From NCBI GenBank assembly GCA_964529325.1, contig CAZGWH010000005.1, positions 1,126-65,125 on the forward strand: DNA of 64,000 bases. The letters run 5' to 3'. Each line of letters opens with the position of its first letter. Within the stretch, counting starts at the first letter, position 1. Shown here piece after piece: positions 36,753 to 53,773 of the stretch. Both the position numbers and the translations under genes were made by a program. Under the pieces are notes generated by a model. That model saw nothing but the letters and a program-made list of their open reading frames with translations. It did not search any database and was not told the DNA's origin. Origin of the DNA: an uncultured bacterium. Its GTDB lineage: Bacteria; Fidelibacterota; Marinisomatia; SCGC-AAA003-L08; GCA-2689995.

Positions 36753-37019
36753 ATGAAATTAAATTTACATATAGATGGTATGTCATGTAATGGATGTGCA
36801 TCAAATATTAAAAATATGATATCTGAATTTAATGGTGTGAAAAATGTGAATGTAAACTTTGATTCAAAATCGGCGGAGTTAGATATAAATGATAAGCAAT
36901 TTAATTCTGTTGAATTTATTCATAAGTTTAATGATACAAAATTTATAGTTAAAATAGTTGAAGAAAATTTAAAAGATAAAAAGTCTTCATTTTTTAATAA
37001 AATAACAAATTTGTTTTAA
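36753..37019 (+). CDS. Heavy-metal-associated (HMA) domain metallochaperone, CopZ-like
   Basis: HIDGMSCNGCASNIKN is the GMxCxxC motif. 88 aa, no signal peptide. Confidence 0.85.
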   Translation: MKLNLHIDGMSCNGCASNIKNMISEFNGVKNVNVNFDSKSAELDINDKQFNSVEFIHKFNDTKFIVKIVEENLKDKKSSFFNKITNLF

Positions 37020-37054
37020 AAATTTACTAATTTATAAAAATAAAAGGAATTAAA

Positions 37055-38110
37055 GTGAGAATATTAATATTTATAGTTACAATTTTTGCAGCTTTATGGG
37101 GACAATGAGCACTCTGAAGTAACCCGTCATTGCCGGTCGGCAATTCGGATAAAGGTGTAGGACTATGGTCAGGTCAGGTCATGCTCGGCGTAGATAATAA
37201 TTATCAATATATTGATTGGGGACATCCAGAAATTGATGGAGAAGTTGATGATAATGGAAATGAAGTTGGTGATCATTTAGGCACTCTTACTGCAAAAATT
37301 ATTTCTCCTAATATTACAATTGGTTTGTCAAATTATTGGAATATTACCATAGGGCAAGTAATTGGGATTCGATCGATGACATGGGGAAATGATTTAGAAT
37401 CCCAGCATCATAGAGAAGAAAATTCATTAACTGATTTTATAAATGATTTGAATGAAATTCAAGCAATTGGTGGTTTATTAGGCGATAGCCGAATAATGCT
37501 TCGGTATTTAATGATAAATGGAGGTGCAGGACCAGGTCATAGATTGTTTTTTGGGGGAGGTTTAGTTATACCTTCAAAAAATACATTGACAAAGTCTCCA
37601 TTTGCTATACCAGAAGAAACAGAAGATCACCGTCATTTCAGCATGAGTGAAGGGGTATATAAAGCAATATTTGAAACCCAATATTTTATAAAACGAAAAT
37701 TAAATCCCGTTTTTATTGGTGGAACATTTTCCATTGAAGAACCACTTTCAGAAAGTGAATATGGTTATAAAGCATCTCGATTAATTGATTTATCTTTTAC
37801 TGCATTTTCAGGTAAAGTAAAATTAATAAATGGATCAATTGGTGCGAGTTTAATGGTTCGGCAGACCTCAAAAGGATATTGGAATGGAGAGGTCGCTCCT
37901 AATTCTGAAAGTACATTAGTGATACCAGGGGTTGGGTTTTTATGGAATATAAATATTGGGACATTGGCCGTTAATTTACAAAAACCATATTTTTTAGATG
38001 GCTCTTTTACAGGGACTGAAGGCCAAGCTGAAGAAACAACAGATGTATATCAAATTTCAGTTAGTGTGAGAAAAGTTTTAGATTATTCAATACCTTTTTT
38101 AGACTGGTAA
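37055..38110 (+). CDS. Candidate secreted selenoprotein: signal peptide, U-A-L-U motif (two in-frame TGA) and a beta-barrel-like 326-aa body. The conservative call is 37130-38110, hypothetical protein.
   Basis: GTG 37055 with AAGGA 6 nt upstream encodes VRILIFIVTIFAALWGQ. TGA at 37106 and 37115 are in frame with the tracked ORF. A SECIS-like hairpin follows. The C-terminus ...DYSIPFLDW is aromatic. Confidence 0.45.
37124..37148 (+). promoter_or_regulatory. SECIS-like RNA hairpin
   Basis: UUGCC(37130-34)/GGCAA(37139-43) stem with GGUC loop (37135-38). Extended by A37129:U37144 and CCG(37124-26)/CGG(37146-48) across a small internal loop. Confidence 0.5.
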
Positions 38111-38253: not shown

Positions 38254-38326
<73 letters not shown>

Positions 38327-38336
38327 CCTCTAAAAA

Positions 38337-38590: not shown

Positions 38591-39751
38591 ATGAGAAATA
38601 TATTCCATTTACGGCTAAAGGATATAGAGCTTCAAGCAGAACGCACTATTGATAGAACCTTGCAAACAAAACCCATTGCAATAATATCATCACATCACGA
38701 TAATGGTAGTGTTATTGCATTATCAAGTGAAGCTAAGGAAGAAGGATTATTTAATGGGTTAAAGATTCATATTGCTCGGAAAATGTCACATAGTGTTCGC
38801 ATGTTACCTTATAATCAAAATTTATATCGTCAAGTTCATGAAAGTCTATACCAAACTATCCGTAATTATACTCCTTTATTTGAACCTGAAGTATTTGGAC
38901 AGTATTATATGGATATGACAGGAACAAGTAGATTATTAGGGTGCATGAATGATGTTGGTATGCATATCACGCGAGACATTAAAAATCAATTAAATTTGAA
39001 AAGTAAAATAGGAATAAGTTCTAATAAATTGGTTAGTAAGATATCTACGGAAGTTGTACCTGAAACAGTTTGGGAAATAAAAAATGGAAATGAACCTAAT
39101 TTTATAGCACCTCTATCTCCTGTTTTTTTGCCAATCTATAAAGAAGTATCTATCAAAAAAGTAATTCGCTTTCTTATGCTCAAATCTATTTCACAAGTTC
39201 AAGATATTTTAAAAATACCACAGCTTGCACCTATTATATTTGGTCGATATTATTCTCAATTGAATATGCAAGCATTTGGGAAAGATATATCTCTTGTACA
39301 TCCATTATTAGAGAAAATTAAAATTACAGAACAAAAAGTGCTCTCTCAAGACACAAATGATTATCAGGTTTTGCAAAGTATTGTGCGAGAATTATCTGGG
39401 CATATTGGATTTAAAATGCGTTCATCTCATCGTCTGGCTAAATATATATATATTGAAATTCATTATACCGATGGTTTTTTAAATAAAAAACGAAGCAAGC
39501 TTAATTCAAATGACGACCATACAATTATTAATGTCTGTACCTTTTTGTTAAAAAAAGTTTTTACTCGACGAAACCGAGTCCGCACTCTTATTGTTACTGC
39601 GACTAATTTATTTCCTGCTAGCAGACAATTATATCTTTTTAATCAAAAAGAAACTAAACAAAATAGTATCTCTTCAGCATTAGATAAAGTTCGTTTAAAA
39701 TTTGGAGAACATAGTATTCACAATGGGTTTTCTTCTAAAAGTTATCATTAA
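38591..39751 (+). CDS. imuB: ImuB-like Y-family polymerase homologue (catalytically inactive type)
   Basis: Y-family architecture. The N-terminal FHLRLKDIELQAE replaces the DxD-containing motif, and YYMDMTG replaces the (S/A)IDE motif. Immediately upstream of dnaE2. Confidence 0.75.
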   Translation: MRNIFHLRLKDIELQAERTIDRTLQTKPIAIISSHHDNGSVIALSSEAKEEGLFNGLKIHIARKMSHSVRMLPYNQNLYRQVHESLYQTIRNYTPLFEPEVFGQYYMDMTGTSRLLGCMNDVGMHITRDIKNQLNLKSKIGISSNKLVSKISTEVVPETVWEIKNGNEPNFIAPLSPVFLPIYKEVSIKKVIRFLMLKSISQVQDILKIPQLAPIIFGRYYSQLNMQAFGKDISLVHPLLEKIKITEQKVLSQDTNDYQVLQSIVRELSGHIGFKMRSSHRLAKYIYIEIHYTDGFLNKKRSKLNSNDDHTIINVCTFLLKKVFTRRNRVRTLIVTATNLFPASRQLYLFNQKETKQNSISSALDKVRLKFGEHSIHNGFSSKSYH

Positions 39752-39757
39752 TTCTAT

Positions 39758-42739
39758 ATGTTTATACATTTAAATACACATACAAATTACTCTAAAATGT
39801 ATAGTGGTAATACATTCAGAGATTATCTTGATGCTGTAAAGAAACTCAATATGCCCTATTTAGCAATTACGGAAGTTAATGGTTTATGGGGATTTATTCA
39901 TTTTATTACTATTGCAAAAGATTATGGTATTAAAGCAATTGCAGGCTCAAATATCATTACAGAAAAATATGAAGCAATAATACTTGTTGAAACAGAAGCA
40001 GGGTTCTCTAACCTATGTAAAATTCTTTCTAATTTACATTTAAACAAAACATTTTCTTTACCTGATATATTAAAAAAATATCATTCAGGACTTTTTATAT
40101 TATCTCATCAAAAATATACTTTAGATAAACTTATAAATATTATTCCGCTATCACATCTATTTATTGAACTTCGCCCAGGAATTGATGAAATGCTTGCTAA
40201 ACAATGGGAAAAAGAATTAAATATTAGCTCTATTGCAACAGGTGATGTTTATTTTATGCATAAAAATGATATTCATACACATAAAATTCTAAGAGCCATT
40301 CATTATAATACAACACTATCCCGTATAGATAAATCTCAATATAAATCTGATAATCATTGGTTTCGCAATAAAGAAAATATGAAGGATATATTTCCAAATA
40401 GCATAGAAGCTATTCATAATAGCTATAAGCTCGCTCAACGATGTAAAACCAATTGGGATTTCAGTAATACTATTTTTCCAAATATTGGGAAAGGTGAAAG
40501 TAAAACAAATAATCCAAATAAAACATTAAAAGAACTTACGCTACACGGAGCAAAAAAACGATATAATAAAATTACATCACATATTCAAAAACGAATTGAC
40601 TATGAATTAGACATTATTATTCAAAAAGGTTTTGCCACTTATTTTTTAATAGTTTGTGATATTGTAAAACAAACTAAATCTACAATTGGTCGAGGCAGTG
40701 GAGCAGCATCAATAATAAGCTATTGTTTATTTATTACCCAAGTTGACCCCATTAAATATAATCTTCAATTTGAACGATTTATTCATCCTGAACGCATTGA
40801 TATGCCTGATATTGATATTGATTTCCCTTGGGATGAACGAGATGATATTTTAAAATATATTTTTAATACGTATGGGCTTAAACATACCGCAATGGTTTCT
40901 AATCAAGTTTTTTTACAACCTCGATCTGCAATTAGAGAAGTTGGAAAAGTATATGGACTTTCAAATGAAGAAATTAAATCAGTAACAAAACGCATTGGAT
41001 ATCATACGCGTCATCGAAAATTAGCAAGCTGGGTTAAAACAGATAATCGATTTAAAAATATAAATTTAGATGAAACACTTGAAGAGATATTAGTTCAAAG
41101 TGAAAAAATAATAGGTGCATTACGAAATTCGTCGGTTCATCCTGGAGGGGTTATTATTGTCCCTGATGAAATTCAAAAATATGTCCCTGTTTTAAAGACA
41201 CCTAAAGATGTACAAATTGTAGAATGGGAGAAAGACCAAGTTGAGGATAGTGGATTATTAAAAATAGATATTCTTGGAAATCGCTCATTAGCAGTAGTGC
41301 GTGATACGCTAAATCAATTAGGATTATATCGCAATAAATACATGGACTATCATCAAATTAAATCAACAGAAGATATTAAAACAATTGAGCTTATGAAATC
41401 AGGGCGAACGATGGGAATATTTTATATTGAAAGTCCAGCAACAAGGCAATTACTTGCAAAATCTCAACATATAGATTTTGAACATGTCGTCATATATTCA
41501 TCAATTATTCGCCCAGCCGCAAACCGATTTATCAATTTAATGTTAGAACGCATTCATGGTAAACCGTGGCAATTGCTCCATCCTGATTTACTCTGCCTTG
41601 CTGAGAGTTATGGGATTATGGTTTACGAAGAACAAGTTTCAACGGTAGCAAGAAAAATTGCAGGATTTGGTTATGCTGAATCTGATTATATCCGAAAAGT
41701 TATTTCTCGTAGTTCTCTTGCACATACCATTTCATACTGGAAACAGAAATTTATTAAAGGGGCAAATAAAAATGGATATACAACGGAACTTGCAGAAAAA
41801 TTATGGGCAATGATTGAATCTTTCTCCGGGTATTCATTTTGTAAGCCACATTCTGCTTCGTATGCAATGTTATCATTTACCTGTGCATATTTAAAATCAC
41901 ATTTTCCTGCTGAGTTTCTAGCGAGTGTTATTAGTAATCAAGGAGGGTTTTATTCTACCTATGCCTATATGAGCGAAGCTAAACGATTTGGAATACAGAT
42001 TCTTAAACCACATATTAACCTAAGTCTAAAAAAATATAAGGGTAAAGGGAATAAAATACGCATGGGATTTATGGCAATTCATAATTTACAAGAAAAGGCA
42101 ATTATTTCTATTTTAGACGAGAGAAAAAATAGTGATTTTAGGTCATTAGATGATTTTTTATTACGAACAGATATTCACATGGCTGATGCAATGGCATTGG
42201 TAAATGCAGGATGCTTTATTGAATTATGTTCGCATATGAATCATAGAGAAATTGCTCTCAAAACAGCATCCTTTTATTTGCAACCGTTAGAAGAACGCAA
42301 CCCTGTAGAAATTAAAATCAATACACTTTCACTCACACACAATGAAAAAATAACATTAGAAATTGAATCATTTGGGTTTCCAATTAGTGAACATCCGTTA
42401 AAAAAATATCAATCCTTTATTCAATACCGTGTTCAAAAAGCAATATATATTCATAAACTACATCGGAAGAAAGTTGTATTTGCAGGTGTACTAATTACTC
42501 GAAAAATCACAGCAACAAAAAGTAAAGAGGCAATGGAGTTTGTTACTTTCGAAGATGAAACAGATATTTATGAATGTGTGATGTTTCCTGAAATATATAA
42601 AAAATATGGTGATTTACTTAATTGGGAAACACTTTTTTTAGTTCATGGTAAAGTTGAAAAATCATTCAATATTTATACACTTACAATATCTCGCTTGGAA
42701 AGTTTGCAACGAACTGTTGATGTGAAATTAGTAGGATAA
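39758..42739 (+). CDS. dnaE2: Error-prone DNA polymerase III alpha homologue DnaE2/ImuC
   Basis: 993 aa. PHP N-terminus MFIHLNTHTNYS. GRGSGAASIISYCLFIT, DIDIDF, HPGGVII and FCKPHSASYA pol IIIalpha motifs. Paired with imuB. Confidence 0.88.
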   Translation: MFIHLNTHTNYSKMYSGNTFRDYLDAVKKLNMPYLAITEVNGLWGFIHFITIAKDYGIKAIAGSNIITEKYEAIILVETEAGFSNLCKILSNLHLNKTFSLPDILKKYHSGLFILSHQKYTLDKLINIIPLSHLFIELRPGIDEMLAKQWEKELNISSIATGDVYFMHKNDIHTHKILRAIHYNTTLSRIDKSQYKSDNHWFRNKENMKDIFPNSIEAIHNSYKLAQRCKTNWDFSNTIFPNIGKGESKTNNPNKTLKELTLHGAKKRYNKITSHIQKRIDYELDIIIQKGFATYFLIVCDIVKQTKSTIGRGSGAASIISYCLFITQVDPIKYNLQFERFIHPERIDMPDIDIDFPWDERDDILKYIFNTYGLKHTAMVSNQVFLQPRSAIREVGKVYGLSNEEIKSVTKRIGYHTRHRKLASWVKTDNRFKNINLDETLEEILVQSEKIIGALRNSSVHPGGVIIVPDEIQKYVPVLKTPKDVQIVEWEKDQVEDSGLLKIDILGNRSLAVVRDTLNQLGLYRNKYMDYHQIKSTEDIKTIELMKSGRTMGIFYIESPATRQLLAKSQHIDFEHVVIYSSIIRPAANRFINLMLERIHGKPWQLLHPDLLCLAESYGIMVYEEQVSTVARKIAGFGYAESDYIRKVISRSSLAHTISYWKQKFIKGANKNGYTTELAEKLWAMIESFSGYSFCKPHSASYAMLSFTCAYLKSHFPAEFLASVISNQGGFYSTYAYMSEAKRFGIQILKPHINLSLKKYKGKGNKIRMGFMAIHNLQEKAIISILDERKNSDFRSLDDFLLRTDIHMADAMALVNAGCFIELCSHMNHREIALKTASFYLQPLEERNPVEIKINTLSLTHNEKITLEIESFGFPISEHPLKKYQSFIQYRVQKAIYIHKLHRKKVVFAGVLITRKITATKSKEAMEFVTFEDETDIYECVMFPEIYKKYGDLLNWETLFLVHGKVEKSFNIYTLTISRLESLQRTVDVKLVG

Positions 42740-43423
42740 TTAAAATAAACTTTTTTGCTGGCAAATATGGGATTCCATAATGCATCTTTTGCTATTATTC
42801 TTCACAGAATTCACTATTGTGGAAACAGGATAATATTCTAATTCTGATTTAATATTATTAAAATTAAATGATTGATATTCAAGGGATGTATTCAGCCAAT
42901 TATCCATGTTATTTTTTTGGAGTACAGGCATTCGATGATGAATATTATTTAATTGATTATCGGCATTAGTTGTAATAACGGTATAAGACTCAATAATATT
43001 CCCAAGAGAGTTTTTCCACCTACTCCATAAGCCCAAAAGACAAAATAAATTATTATCTTGAGTGAAAATATAATATGGTTGTTTTTGCCCATTAACAATT
43101 TTCCATTCATAATACCCATCAATTGGAATTAAACATCGCTGAGAATTAACTAAATTTTTAAATGATGATTTTTCTGAAAGGGTTTCTTGTCTTGCATTAA
43201 TCATATTAGAAGCAAAAGACTCATCCTTTGACCATGATGGAATAAGCCCCCATTTCATTTGCTTTATAATTCGTTTTTCTTTTTTTTGAATAATAATTGG
43301 ATGTTGATGTGTAGGAGCAATATTGTAACTTGGTGTATAATAAATCAAATCATCCCAATGGTCAATTGATAATTCACGAATAATATCTAATTTAGATTTA
43401 GTTAATGTTTTTCGTCCGCACAT
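42740..43423 (-). CDS. yedK: SOS-response-associated peptidase (SRAP/YedK) abasic-site processing protein
   Basis: N-terminal MCGR (catalytic Cys2), YNIAPT, NARQETL, PIDGYYEW, HHRMPV. Confidence 0.9.
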   Translation of the reverse strand: MCGRKTLTKSKLDIIRELSIDHWDDLIYYTPSYNIAPTHQHPIIIQKKEKRIIKQMKWGLIPSWSKDESFASNMINARQETLSEKSSFKNLVNSQRCLIPIDGYYEWKIVNGQKQPYYIFTQDNNLFCLLGLWSRWKNSLGNIIESYTVITTNADNQLNNIHHRMPVLQKNNMDNWLNTSLEYQSFNFNNIKSELEYYPVSTIVNSVKNNSKRCIMESHICQQKSLF

Positions 43424-50525: not shown

Positions 50526-51902
50526 ATGAATAATAAAAAATTAAGAAATTTACCATCTGTTAGTGATATTTTGGATTCTATAAATGCAATTCAATATAAT
50601 TTACCTTACCATTTAATTCTAAAAAAAATTAGACAATCAATTTCTGAATTTAGAAATGAAATAATGAATGGAAACGAATTAACAGTTACTGATTTAATTC
50701 CAAAAATAAAAAATGAATTAGAAAAACTAAATTCGTCTTCCTTACAATCTGTAATTAATGGTACAGGAATTATTTTACATACAGGCTTAGGTCGAGCACC
50801 TATTTCAGAAGAAATATTAAATAATTCATTCGAAAAATTATCTGGATATATTAATATTGAATTAGATCTAAATAATGGGAATAGAGGTGAAAGAGCGAAT
50901 CATATAAACTTACTATTAGATGGATTAACTGGAAGTAAGGAATCTGTAGTTGTAAATAATAATGCCTCCGCTGTGTTATTAACATTAAATACATTTGGTG
51001 AGAAAAAAGAAGTAATTGTGAGTAGAGGTGAGCAAGTTGAAATTGGTGGTTCTTTTCGAATTCCAGATGTAATTAATAAAGCAGGTTGCCATTTAGTTGA
51101 AGTTGGTACAACAAATAGAACTCATTTAAAAGATTATCAAAATGCAATAACTAAACAAACAGGATTACTTCTTGTTGCCCATACGAGTAATTATATTGTA
51201 AAAGGATTTACTAAATCAGTAGAAATTGAAGAACTTGTTTTATTAGCGAAAAAGAGAAAGATACCACTTATTATTGATCTTGGGAGTGGTGCATTAGCTG
51301 AATTACAAAAACTCGGTTTACCATTTGAACCTGTCGTTCAATTTTATATAAAAGCTGGAGTTGATGCAGTTACCTTTAGCGGTGATAAACTCCTCGGAGG
51401 ACCACAATGTGGAATTATCTGTGGGAAACAGGGTGTAATTAAGAAAATACGAAATAATGCGTTATATAGGGCATTACGGTGTGATAAAATAATATATACA
51501 ATTTTAGAAGAAACACTTAGAACCTATTATAATTCTACAATAATTAAATCGGAAAATTTAACATGGACACTCTTTCAACGAAAAATGATTGATTTAGAGG
51601 AAATTGGTAATTTCATACTCTCAAACCTATCATCTAAAATTTTAAAGAATTCTGGATTAAAATTAATTAATTCAATAGTTGAGGCAGGAAGCGGGTCATT
51701 ACCCACTCAGAATATTGAAAGTAGAGCCTTAAGTTTTAAATCTAAATTATTCAAACCTAAACAAATACATCTAAAATTTTTATCACAAAAACCAGCTATT
51801 TTAGGATATATTCATAACAACCAATTTAATATTGATTTAAAAGCAGTACTAAAAAATCAACAAGACTATCTATTAAAATCAATAACGGAAATATTTAGTT
51901 GA
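50526..51902 (+). CDS. selA: L-seryl-tRNA(Sec) selenium transferase
   Basis: NLPSVSDIL N-terminus, INGTGIILHTGLGRAP, FSGDKLLGGPQCGII (PLP lysine). 458 aa. Confidence 0.93.
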   Translation: MNNKKLRNLPSVSDILDSINAIQYNLPYHLILKKIRQSISEFRNEIMNGNELTVTDLIPKIKNELEKLNSSSLQSVINGTGIILHTGLGRAPISEEILNNSFEKLSGYINIELDLNNGNRGERANHINLLLDGLTGSKESVVVNNNASAVLLTLNTFGEKKEVIVSRGEQVEIGGSFRIPDVINKAGCHLVEVGTTNRTHLKDYQNAITKQTGLLLVAHTSNYIVKGFTKSVEIEELVLLAKKRKIPLIIDLGSGALAELQKLGLPFEPVVQFYIKAGVDAVTFSGDKLLGGPQCGIICGKQGVIKKIRNNALYRALRCDKIIYTILEETLRTYYNSTIIKSENLTWTLFQRKMIDLEEIGNFILSNLSSKILKNSGLKLINSIVEAGSGSLPTQNIESRALSFKSKLFKPKQIHLKFLSQKPAILGYIHNNQFNIDLKAVLKNQQDYLLKSITEIFS

Positions 51903-53773
51903 ATCAAATTGTTATCGGAATGGCTGGTCATATTGACCATGGCAAAACATCTCTTGTAAAAGCATTAACTGGAACAAATACTGATAATTTAGAAGAAGAG
52001 CTTCGCCGGGGAATGACCATTGATTTAGGATTTGCTTTTTTAAATGATGAGATTACACTAATTGATGTTCCTGGTCATGAAAAATTTGTAAAAAATATGA
52101 TGGCTGGAGCGAGTGGTATTGATGGTGCAATATTAGTAATTGCTGCTGATGATGGTATTATGCCACAGACTAAAGAGCATTTTGAAATATTAAATTTATT
52201 AGGGATACAAAATGTAATTGTTGCTCTTAATAAAATTGATTTAGCAGATTTAGAATGGATTGAATTAGTAGAAATGGAAATTCATGATTTACTTTTGGAA
52301 GCAGAAATTGATGAGTTTTCAATAATTCAGGTGTCAGCAATACAAAATAAAGGTATTGATAAATTAAAAACAGCTATTATTGAATTATCACAAATGATCC
52401 CATCAAAAATTGATAATGGTATTTTTAGGCTTCCAGTTGATCGTGTTTTTACAATTCAAGGATTTGGTACAGTTGTTACTGGAACTGTACAATCTGGAAG
52501 TATAAAAGTTGGTCAGGAAATCGAAATAATTCCTGGAAATATAAAAGTAAAAGTCCGTGGGATTCAAAGCCATGAAACAAAAACAAATCAAGTTAATTTA
52601 GGCGATAGAGCCGCAATTAATTTTCAAGGCCTAAATAAAAATTCGATAAAACGAGGATTTCAATGTACATCAATCGGATATTTATCATCTACAAAAGAAA
52701 TTGGTGCAAATATCACAAATTTAAAAAATTCAAAAATTGAAATTAAACAAAACCAACGCGTGCGAATTCACTTAGGTACTCAAGAAGTAATGGCTAGAAT
52801 TTCAATTTTAGATAAAAAGTTAATCAATTCAGGTGAAACTGCAACTGTGATAATAAAATTGGAAGAACCTTTAGTTGCAACAATGAACGATAGATTTATT
52901 ATACGGCGGTTCTCACCTGTAGTTACTATTGGTGGCGGGCAAGTAATTGATGCACATTTTATTGGTAAATGGAGTGAAAAAAAAGAATATATAAAATCAA
53001 TTTCTAAGTTTACAGATAATGAACGAATTATTAATATTATTCAATATCAAGGGGTAAATCCAATTGATAAAAAAAATATTAATATTAAGTTTGGAATAGA
53101 TAGCGATTTATTGAAAAAGAAAATTGCTCAATTTTCAGAAGCAAGATATATAAATGATAAAAATGAAACTTGGTTAGTCACTGAAAATCAATTAGATATG
53201 ATTGATCATAAAATAATAAATATTTTAGAATTATTTCAGAAAAAAAATAGACTAAAATCAGGTGCTTTGTCTGAAGAAATATATCAACAAACTGGTGGGA
53301 ATAAAAAATTTATAGAAAATCGATTAATATCTCTGGAGGATAAGAAAGCGATTAAACGCATTGGTGAATTTTGGAGTACTATAAATTTTGAAGTTCGGTT
53401 TTCAAATGAAGAAAATAAATTATACAATAAAATAATAACACAATTAAATAAAGAAGGTTTTCAATCTTCTAATTTAAATGATTTTTCTAAAACAACAGGT
53501 GTCATTGAATCGGAATTAATTCCGTTAATTAAAATTGGGGAAATGAAAAATGAAATTATTCGTTTGACTGAAACATTAATGTTTACACAAAATAATTTTG
53601 ATTTATTGAAAGAGAAAACAATTTCATTTTTATTAAAAAATAAATCTATTTCCATATCTGAATTTAAAGATATAGCAGAAACTTCCCGAAAATATGCTGT
53701 GCCCTTGCTTGAATATTTTGATCGTATAAAAATTACTTATCGTGATGGTAATGAAAGAAAATTATTAGGTTAA
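51899..53773 (+). CDS. selB: Selenocysteine-specific elongation factor SelB
   Basis: TTG start overlaps the selA TGA. GMAGHIDHGKTSLVKALTG, DVPGHEKF, NKID. Long C-terminal winged-helix region. 624 aa. Confidence 0.92.
   Translation: MNQIVIGMAGHIDHGKTSLVKALTGTNTDNLEEELRRGMTIDLGFAFLNDEITLIDVPGHEKFVKNMMAGASGIDGAILVIAADDGIMPQTKEHFEILNLLGIQNVIVALNKIDLADLEWIELVEMEIHDLLLEAEIDEFSIIQVSAIQNKGIDKLKTAIIELSQMIPSKIDNGIFRLPVDRVFTIQGFGTVVTGTVQSGSIKVGQEIEIIPGNIKVKVRGIQSHETKTNQVNLGDRAAINFQGLNKNSIKRGFQCTSIGYLSSTKEIGANITNLKNSKIEIKQNQRVRIHLGTQEVMARISILDKKLINSGETATVIIKLEEPLVATMNDRFIIRRFSPVVTIGGGQVIDAHFIGKWSEKKEYIKSISKFTDNERIINIIQYQGVNPIDKKNINIKFGIDSDLLKKKIAQFSEARYINDKNETWLVTENQLDMIDHKIINILELFQKKNRLKSGALSEEIYQQTGGNKKFIENRLISLEDKKAIKRIGEFWSTINFEVRFSNEENKLYNKIITQLNKEGFQSSNLNDFSKTTGVIESELIPLIKIGEMKNEIIRLTETLMFTQNNFDLLKEKTISFLLKNKSISISEFKDIAETSRKYAVPLLEYFDRIKITYRDGNERKLLG

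What the first reader, a model, noticed from the sequence alone, without database searches (positions are those of the whole stretch)
37115..37148. Hairpin with a GGUC apical loop at fdhF-like distance from the second TGA (SECIS-like element)
Seen in sequence: UUGCC (37130-37134) pairs with GGCAA (37139-37143) around the loop GGUC (37135-37138). The stem extends by A37129:U37144 and CCG (37124-37126):CGG (37146-37148) across a small internal loop (U37127, C37128 versus U37145). Established knowledge, recalled from the literature: in the E. coli fdhF SECIS the SelB-binding determinants are loop G23/U24 within a GGUC loop, plus a bulged U in the 5' strand, numbered from the U of UGA. Numbering from the second TGA here (U37115 = 1) puts GGUC at 21-24, against 22-25 in fdhF, a one-nucleotide offset. 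The first TGA is 9 nt further upstream, so the loop falls at 30-33. This is also the only visibly GC-rich patch in a very AT-rich neighbourhood. Inference: one SECIS may serve two closely spaced UGA codons, which would itself be unusual.
Basis: partly seen in the sequence, partly recalled or inferred. Interest (0 to 1): 0.8.

Follow-up and report, generated by a model that had tools for sequence, protein, structure and literature searches.

The report
One SECIS hairpin, two selenocysteine codons
The hairpin is very probably a real bacterial selenocysteine-insertion signal sitting just after two conserved UGA codons in an uncatalogued outer-membrane barrel protein of marine Marinimicrobia, which makes it a clean natural case for testing whether one signal can recode two nearby stop codons.

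Summary
Thermodynamics alone do not decide the question, but comparison does. In 98 related loci (75 distinct sequences) both TGA codons, the hairpin and their spacing are kept without a single indel. The 5-bp stem pairs in 98.7% of cases, with compensatory changes that arose independently. The loop G and U are invariant or nearly so. Synonymous sites inside the hairpin are frozen, while those in flanking codons vary freely. The element meets every sequence criterion of the published bacterial SECIS consensus for both UGAs. The second UGA lies 11 nt from the hairpin base, as in E. coli fdhF; the first lies 20 nt away.

The gene (37055-38110) encodes a signal peptide, then Gln-Sec-Ala-Leu-Sec, then a 12-stranded outer-membrane β-barrel. 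It matches no Pfam or NCBIfam family, and no cysteine homologue was found. selA and selB are in the window.

UxxU selenoproteins, and the idea that one SECIS serves both codons, are already in the literature. This is therefore a new member of a known kind, moderately interesting and not yet tested experimentally.

The parts
37055..38110 (+). Selenoprotein gene: GTG start, 351 codons including two in-frame TGA, stop at 38108-38110. It encodes a signal peptide, a Q-U-A-L-U motif and a 12-stranded outer-membrane beta-barrel.
   Evidence: Translation. The nearest relative L001 has ATG at the same position. AlphaFold2 gives pLDDT 84.9 and pTM 0.82; the best PDB matches are FapF 5o68/5o65 and the COG4313 channel 4rl8. 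No Pfam or NCBIfam family matches.
37055..37105 (+). Signal-peptide coding region (MRILIFIVTIFAALWGQ).
   Evidence: Every locus has an in-frame stretch of basic then hydrophobic residues ending in Gly-Gln before the first TGA. Third codon positions vary while the amino acids are kept.
37106..37108 (+). First UGA (Sec18), 20 nt upstream of the hairpin base and 26 nt upstream of the loop.
   Evidence: TGA in 75 of 75 distinct sequences and in all 98 loci that reach it.
37115..37117 (+). Second UGA (Sec21), 11 nt upstream of the hairpin base and 17 nt upstream of the loop.
   Evidence: TGA in 75 of 75 distinct sequences.
37129..37144 (+). SECIS core hairpin: A:U pair, then 5-bp stem UUGCC/GGCAA, then 4-nt loop.
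   Evidence: The core pairs form in 98.7% of cells. Pair 40:53 is UA 50, CG 17, GC 1; pair 42:51 is GC 69, AU 3, CG 2. GC to AU at 42:51 occurred independently in three lineages. Third-position entropy is 0.36-0.87 bits inside the hairpin against 1.5-2.0 bits outside. The A:U pair forms in 52 of 75.
37135..37138 (+). Apical loop GGUC; G37136 and U37137 are the presumed SelB contacts.
   Evidence: The loop is GGUC in 53, AGUU in 21 and AGGU in 1. The second position is G in 75 of 75 and the third is U in 74 of 75.
37124..37148 (+). Extended hairpin with lower stem CCG:CGG, present only in the window's own clade.
   Evidence: -10.2 kcal/mol in the window. The two variable lower pairs form in only 15-17 of 75 sequences.
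36753..37019 (+). Upstream HMA/CopZ-like gene with a CxxC motif (possible functional partner).
   Evidence: PF00403 at 43.6 bits. It is adjacent in the closest lineages, L001 and L002. An HMA lipoprotein lies downstream of the barrel gene in 15 other loci.
50526..51902 (+). selA (selenocysteine synthase).
   Evidence: TIGR00474 at 506.8 bits against a cutoff of 267.9.
51899..53773 (+). selB (Sec-specific elongation factor with a C-terminal winged-helix SECIS-binding domain).
   Evidence: TIGR00475 at 374 bits against a cutoff of 242. PF09107 SelB-wing_3 matches residues 577-622. The best solved relatives are E. coli SelB 5lzb and A. aeolicus SelB 4zu9.

Best explanation
The hairpin at 37129-37144 is a bacterial SECIS element inside the coding region of a two-selenocysteine (UxxU) protein, and it is the only recoding signal for both UGA codons.

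Proposed mechanism:
1. While the ribosome translates the signal peptide, the hairpin folds downstream. SelB-GTP-Sec-tRNASec binds its apical G-U through the C-terminal winged-helix domains.
2. When the first UGA (37106) is in the A site, the hairpin base is 20 nt away. The single-stranded spacer and the flexible hinge of SelB let the tethered complex reach the A site.
3. After Sec insertion and three translocations, the second UGA (37115) is in the A site and the hairpin base is 11 nt away, at the mRNA entrance, as in E. coli fdhF. A second SelB complex loaded on the same hairpin delivers the second Sec.
4. The ribosome then melts the hairpin and reads it as Leu-Pro-Val-Gly-Asn.

Shown here: the conserved structure, its covariation, the invariant spacing and invariant UGAs, translation-type conservation across both UGAs, and the presence of selA and selB. 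Inferred: SelB binding, Sec (rather than Cys or Trp) at each UGA, and reloading of the same hairpin.
For: Structure. The hairpin is in the MFE fold. RNAalifold finds just this one helix in 75 sequences. The core pairs in 98.7% of cells, with compensatory changes at two pairs and no shuffle reaching the observed covariation score. GC to AU at pair 42:51 arose in three separate lineages on a tree built from the rest of the protein.

RNA-level selection. The window uses four consecutive rare codons: TTG 12.4%, CCG 6.6%, GTC 4.9% and GGC 5.3% of their families. Synonymous resampling keeps 5 of 5 pairs in 28.6% of cases, against 70 of 75 observed. Third-position entropy is 0.36-0.87 bits in the hairpin and 1.5-2.0 bits in flanking four-fold codons.

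Consensus fit (criteria quoted in PMC13188914). The loop is 4 nt, the stem 5-6 bp, and G is at loop position 2 followed by U. Spacing is 17 nt (UGA2) and 26 nt (UGA1), both within 16-37. MFE is -10.2 kcal/mol.

Real Sec codons. Both TGAs are kept in all 98 loci with no indel. The upstream frame encodes a signal peptide that a beta-barrel needs. TGA ends 6 of 53 large ORFs in the window, so it is a stop here. selA and selB are present.

Literature. The SelB hinge is proposed to absorb differences in spacing (PMC4605307). A single SECIS for UXXU motifs has been proposed for Group 4 hydrogenases (PMC13582414).
Against: There is no experiment. In E. coli the 11-nt spacing is reported as part of the minimal element (PMC8659212). 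From my own recollection of Liu et al. 1998, which is not held in the library, changing that spacing sharply lowers readthrough, so the first UGA at 20 nt would be inefficient under E. coli rules.

The peptide L-P-x-G-N by itself fixes 3-4 of the 5 pairs, so part of the hairpin comes free with the protein sequence. The loop G and U are the first two bases of a conserved Val codon, so their invariance is not independent evidence.

No Cys homologue was found, so the usual Sec/Cys-pair validation is missing. selC and selD are not in the window. A Cys-inserting tRNA (tRNA-ReC, PMC13582414) cannot be excluded. No other selenoprotein gene from this lineage was found to compare spacings.
Confidence: 0.75

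Rival explanations
1. The hairpin is a SECIS for the second UGA only, where the spacing is canonical at 11 nt. The first UGA is decoded another way: near-cognate Trp readthrough, a SECIS-dependent Cys-inserting tRNA (tRNA-ReC/selC*), or another unrecognised signal.
For: Only the second UGA has the fdhF-like 11-nt spacer (PMC8659212). Genomes with UXXU hydrogenases are enriched in tRNA-ReC (PMC13582414). No tRNA-Sec or related tRNA can be inspected in this window.
Against: The first TGA is as invariant as the second: 75 of 75 sequences, never TGG or TGY. If Trp or Cys were acceptable there, ordinary codons should appear in some of the 75 lineages. At 26 nt to the loop, the first UGA is inside the 16-37 nt range seen for bacterial SECIS elements (PMC13188914). 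No second conserved structure exists.
Confidence: 0.17
2. The hairpin is a by-product of the conserved peptide Leu-Pro-Val-Gly-Asn and has no RNA function. The TGAs are read under an alternative genetic code, or they are pseudogene lesions.
For: The peptide alone fixes CC:GG and U:A pairs. 90% of synonymous resamples keep at least 3 of 5 pairs. Some public gene calls translate the TGAs as Trp.
Against: Full pairing occurs in 70 of 75 sequences, against a maximum of 34 in 2000 resamples. Synonymous Leu and Gly third positions covary. Rare codons are used. TGA terminates 6 of 53 ORFs in this window. selA and selB are present. Purifying selection runs across the whole gene in more than 200 clusters, which rules out pseudogenes.
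Confidence: 0.03
3. The gene really starts at the TTG at 37130, and the hairpin is a 5'-leader structure that controls initiation or transcription. The upstream frame is a short leader ORF ending at TGA.
For: Gene callers start most homologues at this codon (M/LPVGNSD...).
Against: In many orthologues that codon is CTG, CTA, CTC or GTC. The last three are not start codons, and CTG is at best a very rare one. The 326-aa product would be a beta-barrel with no signal peptide. The upstream frame shows codon-type conservation through both TGAs. There is no terminator-like T-run.
Confidence: 0.02

Closest known systems
E. coli fdhF SECIS (minimal upper stem-loop, nt 15-31 from the U of UGA)
   Same: The hairpin lies immediately downstream of an in-frame UGA. 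The spacer from the second UGA to the hairpin base is 11 nt. The loop is GGUC with an exposed G-U. The hairpin is about 16-17 nt long (PMC8659212).
   Different: There is no bulged U in the 5' strand, so G/U sit at positions 22/23 rather than 23/24. There is no conserved lower stem enclosing the UGA. A second UGA lies 9 nt further upstream. One clade uses the loop AGUU.
Consensus bacterial SECIS model (bSECISearch; Zhang and Gladyshev 2005, as summarised in PMC13188914)
   Same: All four sequence criteria are met: loop size, stem length, G in the first two loop positions followed by U, and spacing of 16-37 nt. MFE is at or below -7.5 kcal/mol in the window.
   Different: The first and last loop bases covary (G..C with A..U) with no base between the GU and the closing partner. 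In some orthologues the hairpin alone is weaker than the energy cut-off (mean -6.5 kcal/mol for 16 nt).
Known bacterial UxxU selenoproteins: metal-binding HMA protein NF041115, Prx-like 2, FmdB family, Group 4 [NiFeSe] hydrogenase large subunits (PMC13188914, PMC2398784, PMC13582414)
   Same: Two UGA codons are separated by two sense codons, followed by one SECIS-like hairpin. The same open question applies: does one SECIS serve both?
   Different: The protein is unrelated: an outer-membrane beta-barrel with the motif at the very N-terminus of the mature chain. No CxxC, CxxU or UxxC relatives were found, whereas the known families are mostly Cys forms with sporadic Sec forms.
FapF and COG4313 (Pput2725) 12-stranded outer-membrane channels
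   Same: The fold is predicted to be similar (Foldseek E 6.5e-9 to 2.5e-7, TM 0.55-0.69). There is a C-terminal aromatic residue and an N-terminal segment ahead of the barrel.
   Different: Sequence identity is only 10-12%. No Pfam match was found. There is a conserved His cluster (HH-R, H-R-H-F) and an N-terminal Sec-x-x-Sec motif. The transported substrate is unknown.
Moorella thermoacetica fdhA SECIS used in SelB co-crystals (PDB 1WSU, cited in PMC4605307)
   Same: From my recollection of that RNA (GGCGUUGCCGGUCUGGCAACGCC), the stem GUUGCC/GGCAAC and the GGUC start of the loop are nearly identical to AUUGCC-GGUC-GGCAAU here.
   Different: The loop here is one nucleotide shorter. The sequence of the crystal RNA could not be checked with the tools (one search found nothing relevant), so this is a lead and not a test.

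Membership tests
Bacterial SECIS (consensus model) | Stem-loop immediately downstream of an in-frame UGA within a coding region | tested here: met
   The reading frame runs through both TGAs into a 326-aa conserved body. The hairpin starts 11 nt after the second TGA.
Bacterial SECIS (consensus model) | Apical loop of 3-9 nt on an upper stem of 4-16 bp | tested here: met
   4-nt loop; 5 bp always, 6 bp in 52 of 75.
Bacterial SECIS (consensus model) | G in one of the first two loop positions, usually followed by G or U | tested here: met
   Loop position 2 is G in 75 of 75 and position 3 is U in 74 of 75. Caveat: both are fixed by a Val codon.
Bacterial SECIS (consensus model) | 16-37 nt between UGA and apical loop | tested here: met
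   17 nt for the second UGA and 26 nt for the first, identical in all 75 sequences.
Bacterial SECIS (consensus model) | MFE at or below -7.5 kcal/mol | tested here: met
   -10.2 kcal/mol (25 nt) and -11.7 (45 nt) in the window. Borderline in some orthologues, e.g. -7.7 in L011.
Bacterial SECIS (consensus model) | Structure kept by covariation in orthologues | tested here: met
   Compensatory changes at pairs 40:53 and 42:51, several of them independent.
Bacterial SECIS (functional definition) | Bound by SelB and required for Sec insertion at the UGA | not testable with these tools
   Needs a gel shift, a reporter, or 75Se/MS. The window does encode a SelB with a SelB-wing_3 domain.
Bacterial SECIS (functional definition) | [quoted passage not shown] | tested here: inconclusive
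   selA and selB are present. No tRNA-Sec was found. No selD turned up among the ORFs scanned, and the window is only 64 kb.
E. coli fdhF-type SECIS | 11-nt spacer between UGA and the minimal hairpin | tested here: met
   Met for the second UGA (37118-37128 is 11 nt). Not met for the first UGA (20 nt).
E. coli fdhF-type SECIS | Bulged U (U17) in the 5' strand of the upper stem | tested here: not met
   The upper stem is a perfect 6-bp helix with no bulge.
E. coli fdhF-type SECIS | Lower helix that includes the UGA | tested here: inconclusive
An alternative small hairpin containing the second UGA pairs in 79.5% of cells, but its middle pair forms in only 31 of 75.
Selenoprotein (standard bioinformatic validation) | Homologues with Cys aligned to the Sec position | tested here: not met
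   No Cys form was found among 98 loci, 288 word-indexed hits or the 150 best of 205 cluster representatives. N-terminally complete calls read W..W, which is TGA in the DNA. This is a validation habit, not a defining feature.
UxxU selenoprotein class | Two in-frame UGA codons separated by two sense codons, both conserved | tested here: met
   TGA-GCN-YTN-TGA in 75 of 75.
FapF / COG4313 outer-membrane channel fold | 12-stranded beta-barrel with signal peptide and C-terminal aromatic residue | tested here: met
   AF2 pLDDT 84.9 with 12 long strands. Foldseek probability 1.00 to 5o68 and 4rl8. The chain ends in ...FLDW. There is no sequence-family membership.

The most novel reading that the evidence does not exclude
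An abundant marine phylum (Marinimicrobia/SAR406) carries a previously uncatalogued outer-membrane channel family whose mature N-terminus is an obligate Sec-x-x-Sec pair, never replaced by Cys. Both residues are inserted under one rigidly positioned SECIS, so bacterial SelB can work at two spacings (11 and 20 nt) on the same mRNA within three codons. Recurrent neighbourhood with HMA metal-binding genes and a conserved His cluster would make it a selenium-based soft-metal (Hg/Cu-type) gate in the outer membrane.
Probability: 0.45. Interest if true: 0.7.

Novelty: new member of a known kind. Interest (0 to 1): 0.55.

Why it matters
Bacterial Sec insertion is usually described with E. coli rules: one UGA, one hairpin, and a fixed 11-nt spacer. 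Whether the two UGAs of UxxU motifs share one SECIS was raised as an open possibility in 2026 (PMC13582414). This locus offers a compact test case. It has a 16-nt hairpin, two invariant UGAs 9 nt apart, no competing structure, the cognate selB 15 kb away, and 75 natural sequence variants that already mark which positions matter.

It also exposes a blind spot. Current selenoprotein finders depend on Cys homologues (PMC12013277), so a family with none, like this one, is missed and is annotated everywhere as an N-terminally truncated hypothetical protein. Finally, it places selenium in the outer membrane of one of the commonest deep-ocean bacterial lineages.

Tried and rejected
- **Rfam:** gathering thresholds on the whole window and E up to 10 on 36950-37300 gave nothing for the element.
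- **Single-sequence thermodynamics in longer contexts:** not significant, so it was not used as evidence.
rejected as a conserved feature.
- **A second hairpin enclosing the second UGA:** weak and left unresolved.
- **Loop-closing G:C/A:U covariation:** perfect in 75 of 75 (GC 53, AU 22), but only about 2 events on the tree, so it is not claimed as a pair.
- **Terminator or attenuator reading:** rejected, no T-run.
- **Other selenoprotein genes for comparing spacings:** I searched the window and about 300 kb of related loci. None was convincing.
- **HMA neighbour as a universal partner:** rejected. It lies upstream only in the two closest lineages, though a different HMA lipoprotein lies downstream in 15 other loci.
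- **Bacteroidetes Q-rule for the Gly-Gln before the first Sec:** the paper says the rule does not extend to the whole FCB group, so this remains only a hint.
- **Not possible:** the afdb50 fold library was unavailable. Liu et al. 1998 on spacing is not held. The crystal SECIS sequence could not be verified by text search.
Full report
**What is in the sequence**

UUGCC (37130-37134) and GGCAA (37139-37143) flank GGUC (37135-37138). A37129 can pair with U37144, and CCG (37124-37126) with CGG (37146-37148). TGA codons sit at 37106-37108 and 37115-37117.

Reading from the GTG at 37055 gives MRILIFIVTIFAALWGQ-TGA-AL-TGA-SNPSLPVGNSDKGVGLW... and continues open to 38110. The hairpin is therefore inside a coding region and encodes Leu-Pro-Val-Gly-Asn.

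**Is it more than chance?**

The hairpin appears in the minimum-energy folds of the 71-nt and 201-nt contexts, but those contexts are no more stable than shuffles (z +0.67 and +0.73). Isolated, the hairpin is better than shuffles: 16 nt gives -6.2 kcal/mol and z -3.06; 25 nt gives -10.2 kcal/mol and z -2.81. One sequence alone cannot decide the matter.

Rfam has no match at gathering thresholds or at E up to 10. No terminator-like site is present. The GC-rich patch is real but spans about 37084-37192.

**Comparative evidence**

A protein search found 288 relatives. Every one of the 120 listed lacks the N-terminus, as expected if gene callers stop at a TGA. Scans of genomes and metagenomes returned 102 loci, mostly Neomarinimicrobiota (Marinimicrobia/SAR406) MAGs and marine metagenomes.

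In all 98 loci that reach the 5' end, the frame reads signal peptide, Gly-Gln, TGA, Ala/Pro/Ser, Leu/Met, TGA, x-Asn-Pro-Ser-Leu-Pro-Val-Gly. The 75 distinct 90-nt segments align without any indel up to and through the hairpin.

RNAalifold predicts exactly one helix, the 5-bp core. Its pairs form in 98.7% of cells:
- Pair 37130:37143 is UA in 50, CG in 17, GC in 1 and UG in 2.
- Pair 37132:37141 is GC in 69, AU in 3, CG in 2 and GU in 1.
- The other three pairs are invariant or nearly so.

No shuffle of 500 reaches the observed covariation score, and slid registers score far lower. On a neighbour-joining tree built from the rest of the protein, the GC-to-AU switch at 37132:37141 occurs in three separate lineages (L018, L055, L080). 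The CG form occurs in the two deepest branches.

The loop is GGUC (53), AGUU (21) or AGGU (1). Its second base is G in all sequences and its third is U in 74 of 75.

**RNA constraint versus protein constraint**

The peptide Leu-Pro-x-Gly-Asn itself fixes CC:GG and U:A, so part of the hairpin comes free with the protein. The control for this was to resample synonymous codons using this genome's codon usage. That keeps all five pairs in 28.6% of cases (mean 21.5 of 75, maximum 34 in 2000 trials), against 70 of 75 observed.

The window uses TTG, CCG, GTC and GGC. These account for 12.4, 6.6, 4.9 and 5.3% of their codon families here.

Third-position entropy is 0.36 (Leu), 0.87 (Pro), 0.86 (Val) and 0.48 bits (Gly) inside the hairpin. 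It is 1.5-2.0 bits at four-fold sites on both sides, including other Gly, Val and Pro codons. This is selection on the RNA.

The covariation of UUG/CUG (synonymous) with AAU/AGU (Asn/Ser) shows the RNA constraint even shaping an amino-acid change.

**What is not supported**

There is no bulged U. That is why the loop G/U fall at positions 22/23 from the second UGA instead of 23/24 as in fdhF.

The spacer from that UGA to the hairpin base (37118-37128) is 11 nt, the figure given for the fdhF minimal element (PMC8659212).

**Are the TGAs selenocysteine codons?**

- TGA is a genuine stop in this genome: 6 of 53 large ORFs end with it.
- selA (TIGR00474, 506.8 bits) and selB (TIGR00475, 374 bits, with a SelB-wing_3 domain at residues 577-622) are in the window. 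The SelB is closest to the E. coli and A. aeolicus SelB structures.
- The frame upstream of the TGAs shows protein-type conservation: variable third positions, with conserved Gly-Gln, Ala and Leu. It encodes the signal peptide that the downstream product needs.
- That product is predicted with confidence (pLDDT 84.9, pTM 0.82) to be a 12-stranded beta-barrel. It resembles the outer-membrane channels FapF (5o68, 5o65) and COG4313 (4rl8), and it ends in an aromatic residue.
- The codon at 37130, where gene callers start, is CTG, CTA, CTC or GTC in many orthologues. The last three are not start codons and CTG is at best a very rare one, so it cannot be the true start.

An exhaustive profile search of 1.84 billion cluster representatives found 205 relatives. 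Those that include the N-terminus read W-x-x-W. The DNA of two of them shows TGA at both positions, so these are table-4 gene calls on low-GC contigs. No Cys form was found anywhere.

No Pfam or NCBIfam model matches the protein, with or without its N-terminus.

**One SECIS for two UGAs**

The published consensus for bacterial SECIS elements requires four things (PMC13188914): a 3-9 nt loop on a 4-16 bp stem; G in the first two loop positions, mostly followed by G or U; 16-37 nt between UGA and loop; and MFE at or below -7.5 kcal/mol.

The element meets all four for both UGAs. The distances are 17 and 26 nt, and the MFE is -10.2 kcal/mol.

A structural model of full-length SelB on the ribosome places the conserved G about 20 nt downstream of the UGA. 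It proposes that the hinge between winged-helix domains 2 and 3 absorbs differences in spacing (PMC4605307).

Only one conserved structure follows the two codons, and both codons and all distances are invariant across the family. The simplest reading is that the same hairpin recodes both: the first at 20 nt from its base, the second at the canonical 11 nt after three translocations, with a second SelB complex loading in between. This last step is inference.

The main alternative is that only the second UGA uses the hairpin. This is weakened by the absolute conservation of the first TGA. If Trp or Cys were acceptable there, TGG or TGY should occur in some lineage.

A Cys-inserting tRNA-ReC, which is enriched in genomes with UXXU hydrogenases (PMC13582414), cannot be excluded from this window.

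**Relation to what is known**

UxxU motifs are known in bacterial selenoproteins:
- Prx-like 2 in the GOS data (PMC2398784).
- The HMA-type metal-binding protein NF041115 and the FmdB family (PMC13188914).
- Group 4 [NiFeSe] hydrogenases (PMC13582414). The authors of that paper explicitly raise decoding of both UGAs by a single downstream SECIS.

The kind is therefore known. What is new is the family: an outer-membrane barrel with the pair at the start of the mature chain, found so far only as the Sec form. Current predictors rely on Cys homologues and admit they miss such families (PMC12013277), which explains why it is annotated as a truncated hypothetical protein.

**Function of the protein (weakly supported)**

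An HMA/CopZ-like CxxC gene lies directly upstream here and in the two closest lineages. In 15 other loci a different HMA lipoprotein lies directly downstream. Other neighbours are housekeeping genes.

Invariant His residues (H32, H49, H93, H94, H167; H169 nearly invariant, numbered from Leu at 37130) suggest metal ligation. A soft-metal channel or gate is a reasonable guess but is not shown.

**Verdict**

- Confidence that the hairpin is a SECIS: about 0.9.
- Confidence that it alone serves both UGAs with Sec at both: about 0.65-0.7.
- Novelty: new member of a known kind.
- Interest: 0.55.

Noticed in passing
window 37115-37129: A possible second small hairpin contains the second UGA itself: UGA(A/G)G pairs with C-N-UCA around a 5-nt loop. 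It pairs in 79.5% of cells. Its middle pair forms in only 31 of 75 sequences, yet G at 37118 goes with C at 37126 in 6 of 7 sequences.
   Followed up: partly
window 37100-37105: Gly-Gln directly before the first Sec is kept in 74 of 75 sequences. It probably marks the signal-peptidase site, so the mature protein would start Q-U-A-L-U or U-A-L-U. The Bacteroidetes Q-rule paper says the rule is not general for the FCB group.
   Followed up: partly
window 36753-37019; L047 2445-2826 and 14 other loci: HMA (heavy-metal-associated) CxxC genes flank the barrel gene in two different arrangements. One is a CopZ-like gene upstream (window, L001, L002). The other is an HMA lipoprotein with a C-terminal Cys-Cys downstream in 15 loci.
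   Followed up: partly
L103 42-200; L104 142-300: Some public gene calls for this family translate both TGAs as Trp (W-x-x-W), evidently because table 4 was chosen for low-GC contigs. The DNA shows TGA. Such calls could mislead searches for non-Sec homologues.
   Followed up: yes
window 38591-43423: A translesion-synthesis-type cluster lies just downstream. It comprises an IMS-family (ImuB/DinB-like) gene at 38591-39751, a DNA polymerase III alpha-like gene at 39758-42739, and an SRAP gene on the minus strand at 42740-43423.
   Followed up: no
window 51899-51902 and 53773: The selA stop overlaps the selB start, and mutS starts at the selB stop. No selC (tRNA-Sec) was found in the 64 kb. No selD turned up among the ORFs scanned.
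   Followed up: partly
window 38254-38328: A tRNA-Phe (GAA) lies about 145 nt downstream of the selenoprotein gene's stop codon.
   Followed up: no
window, whole: TGA is the rarest stop: 6 of 53 large plus-strand ORFs, against 37 TAA and 10 TAG. Low reliance on RF2-read stops might ease double UGA recoding. This is speculative.
   Followed up: no
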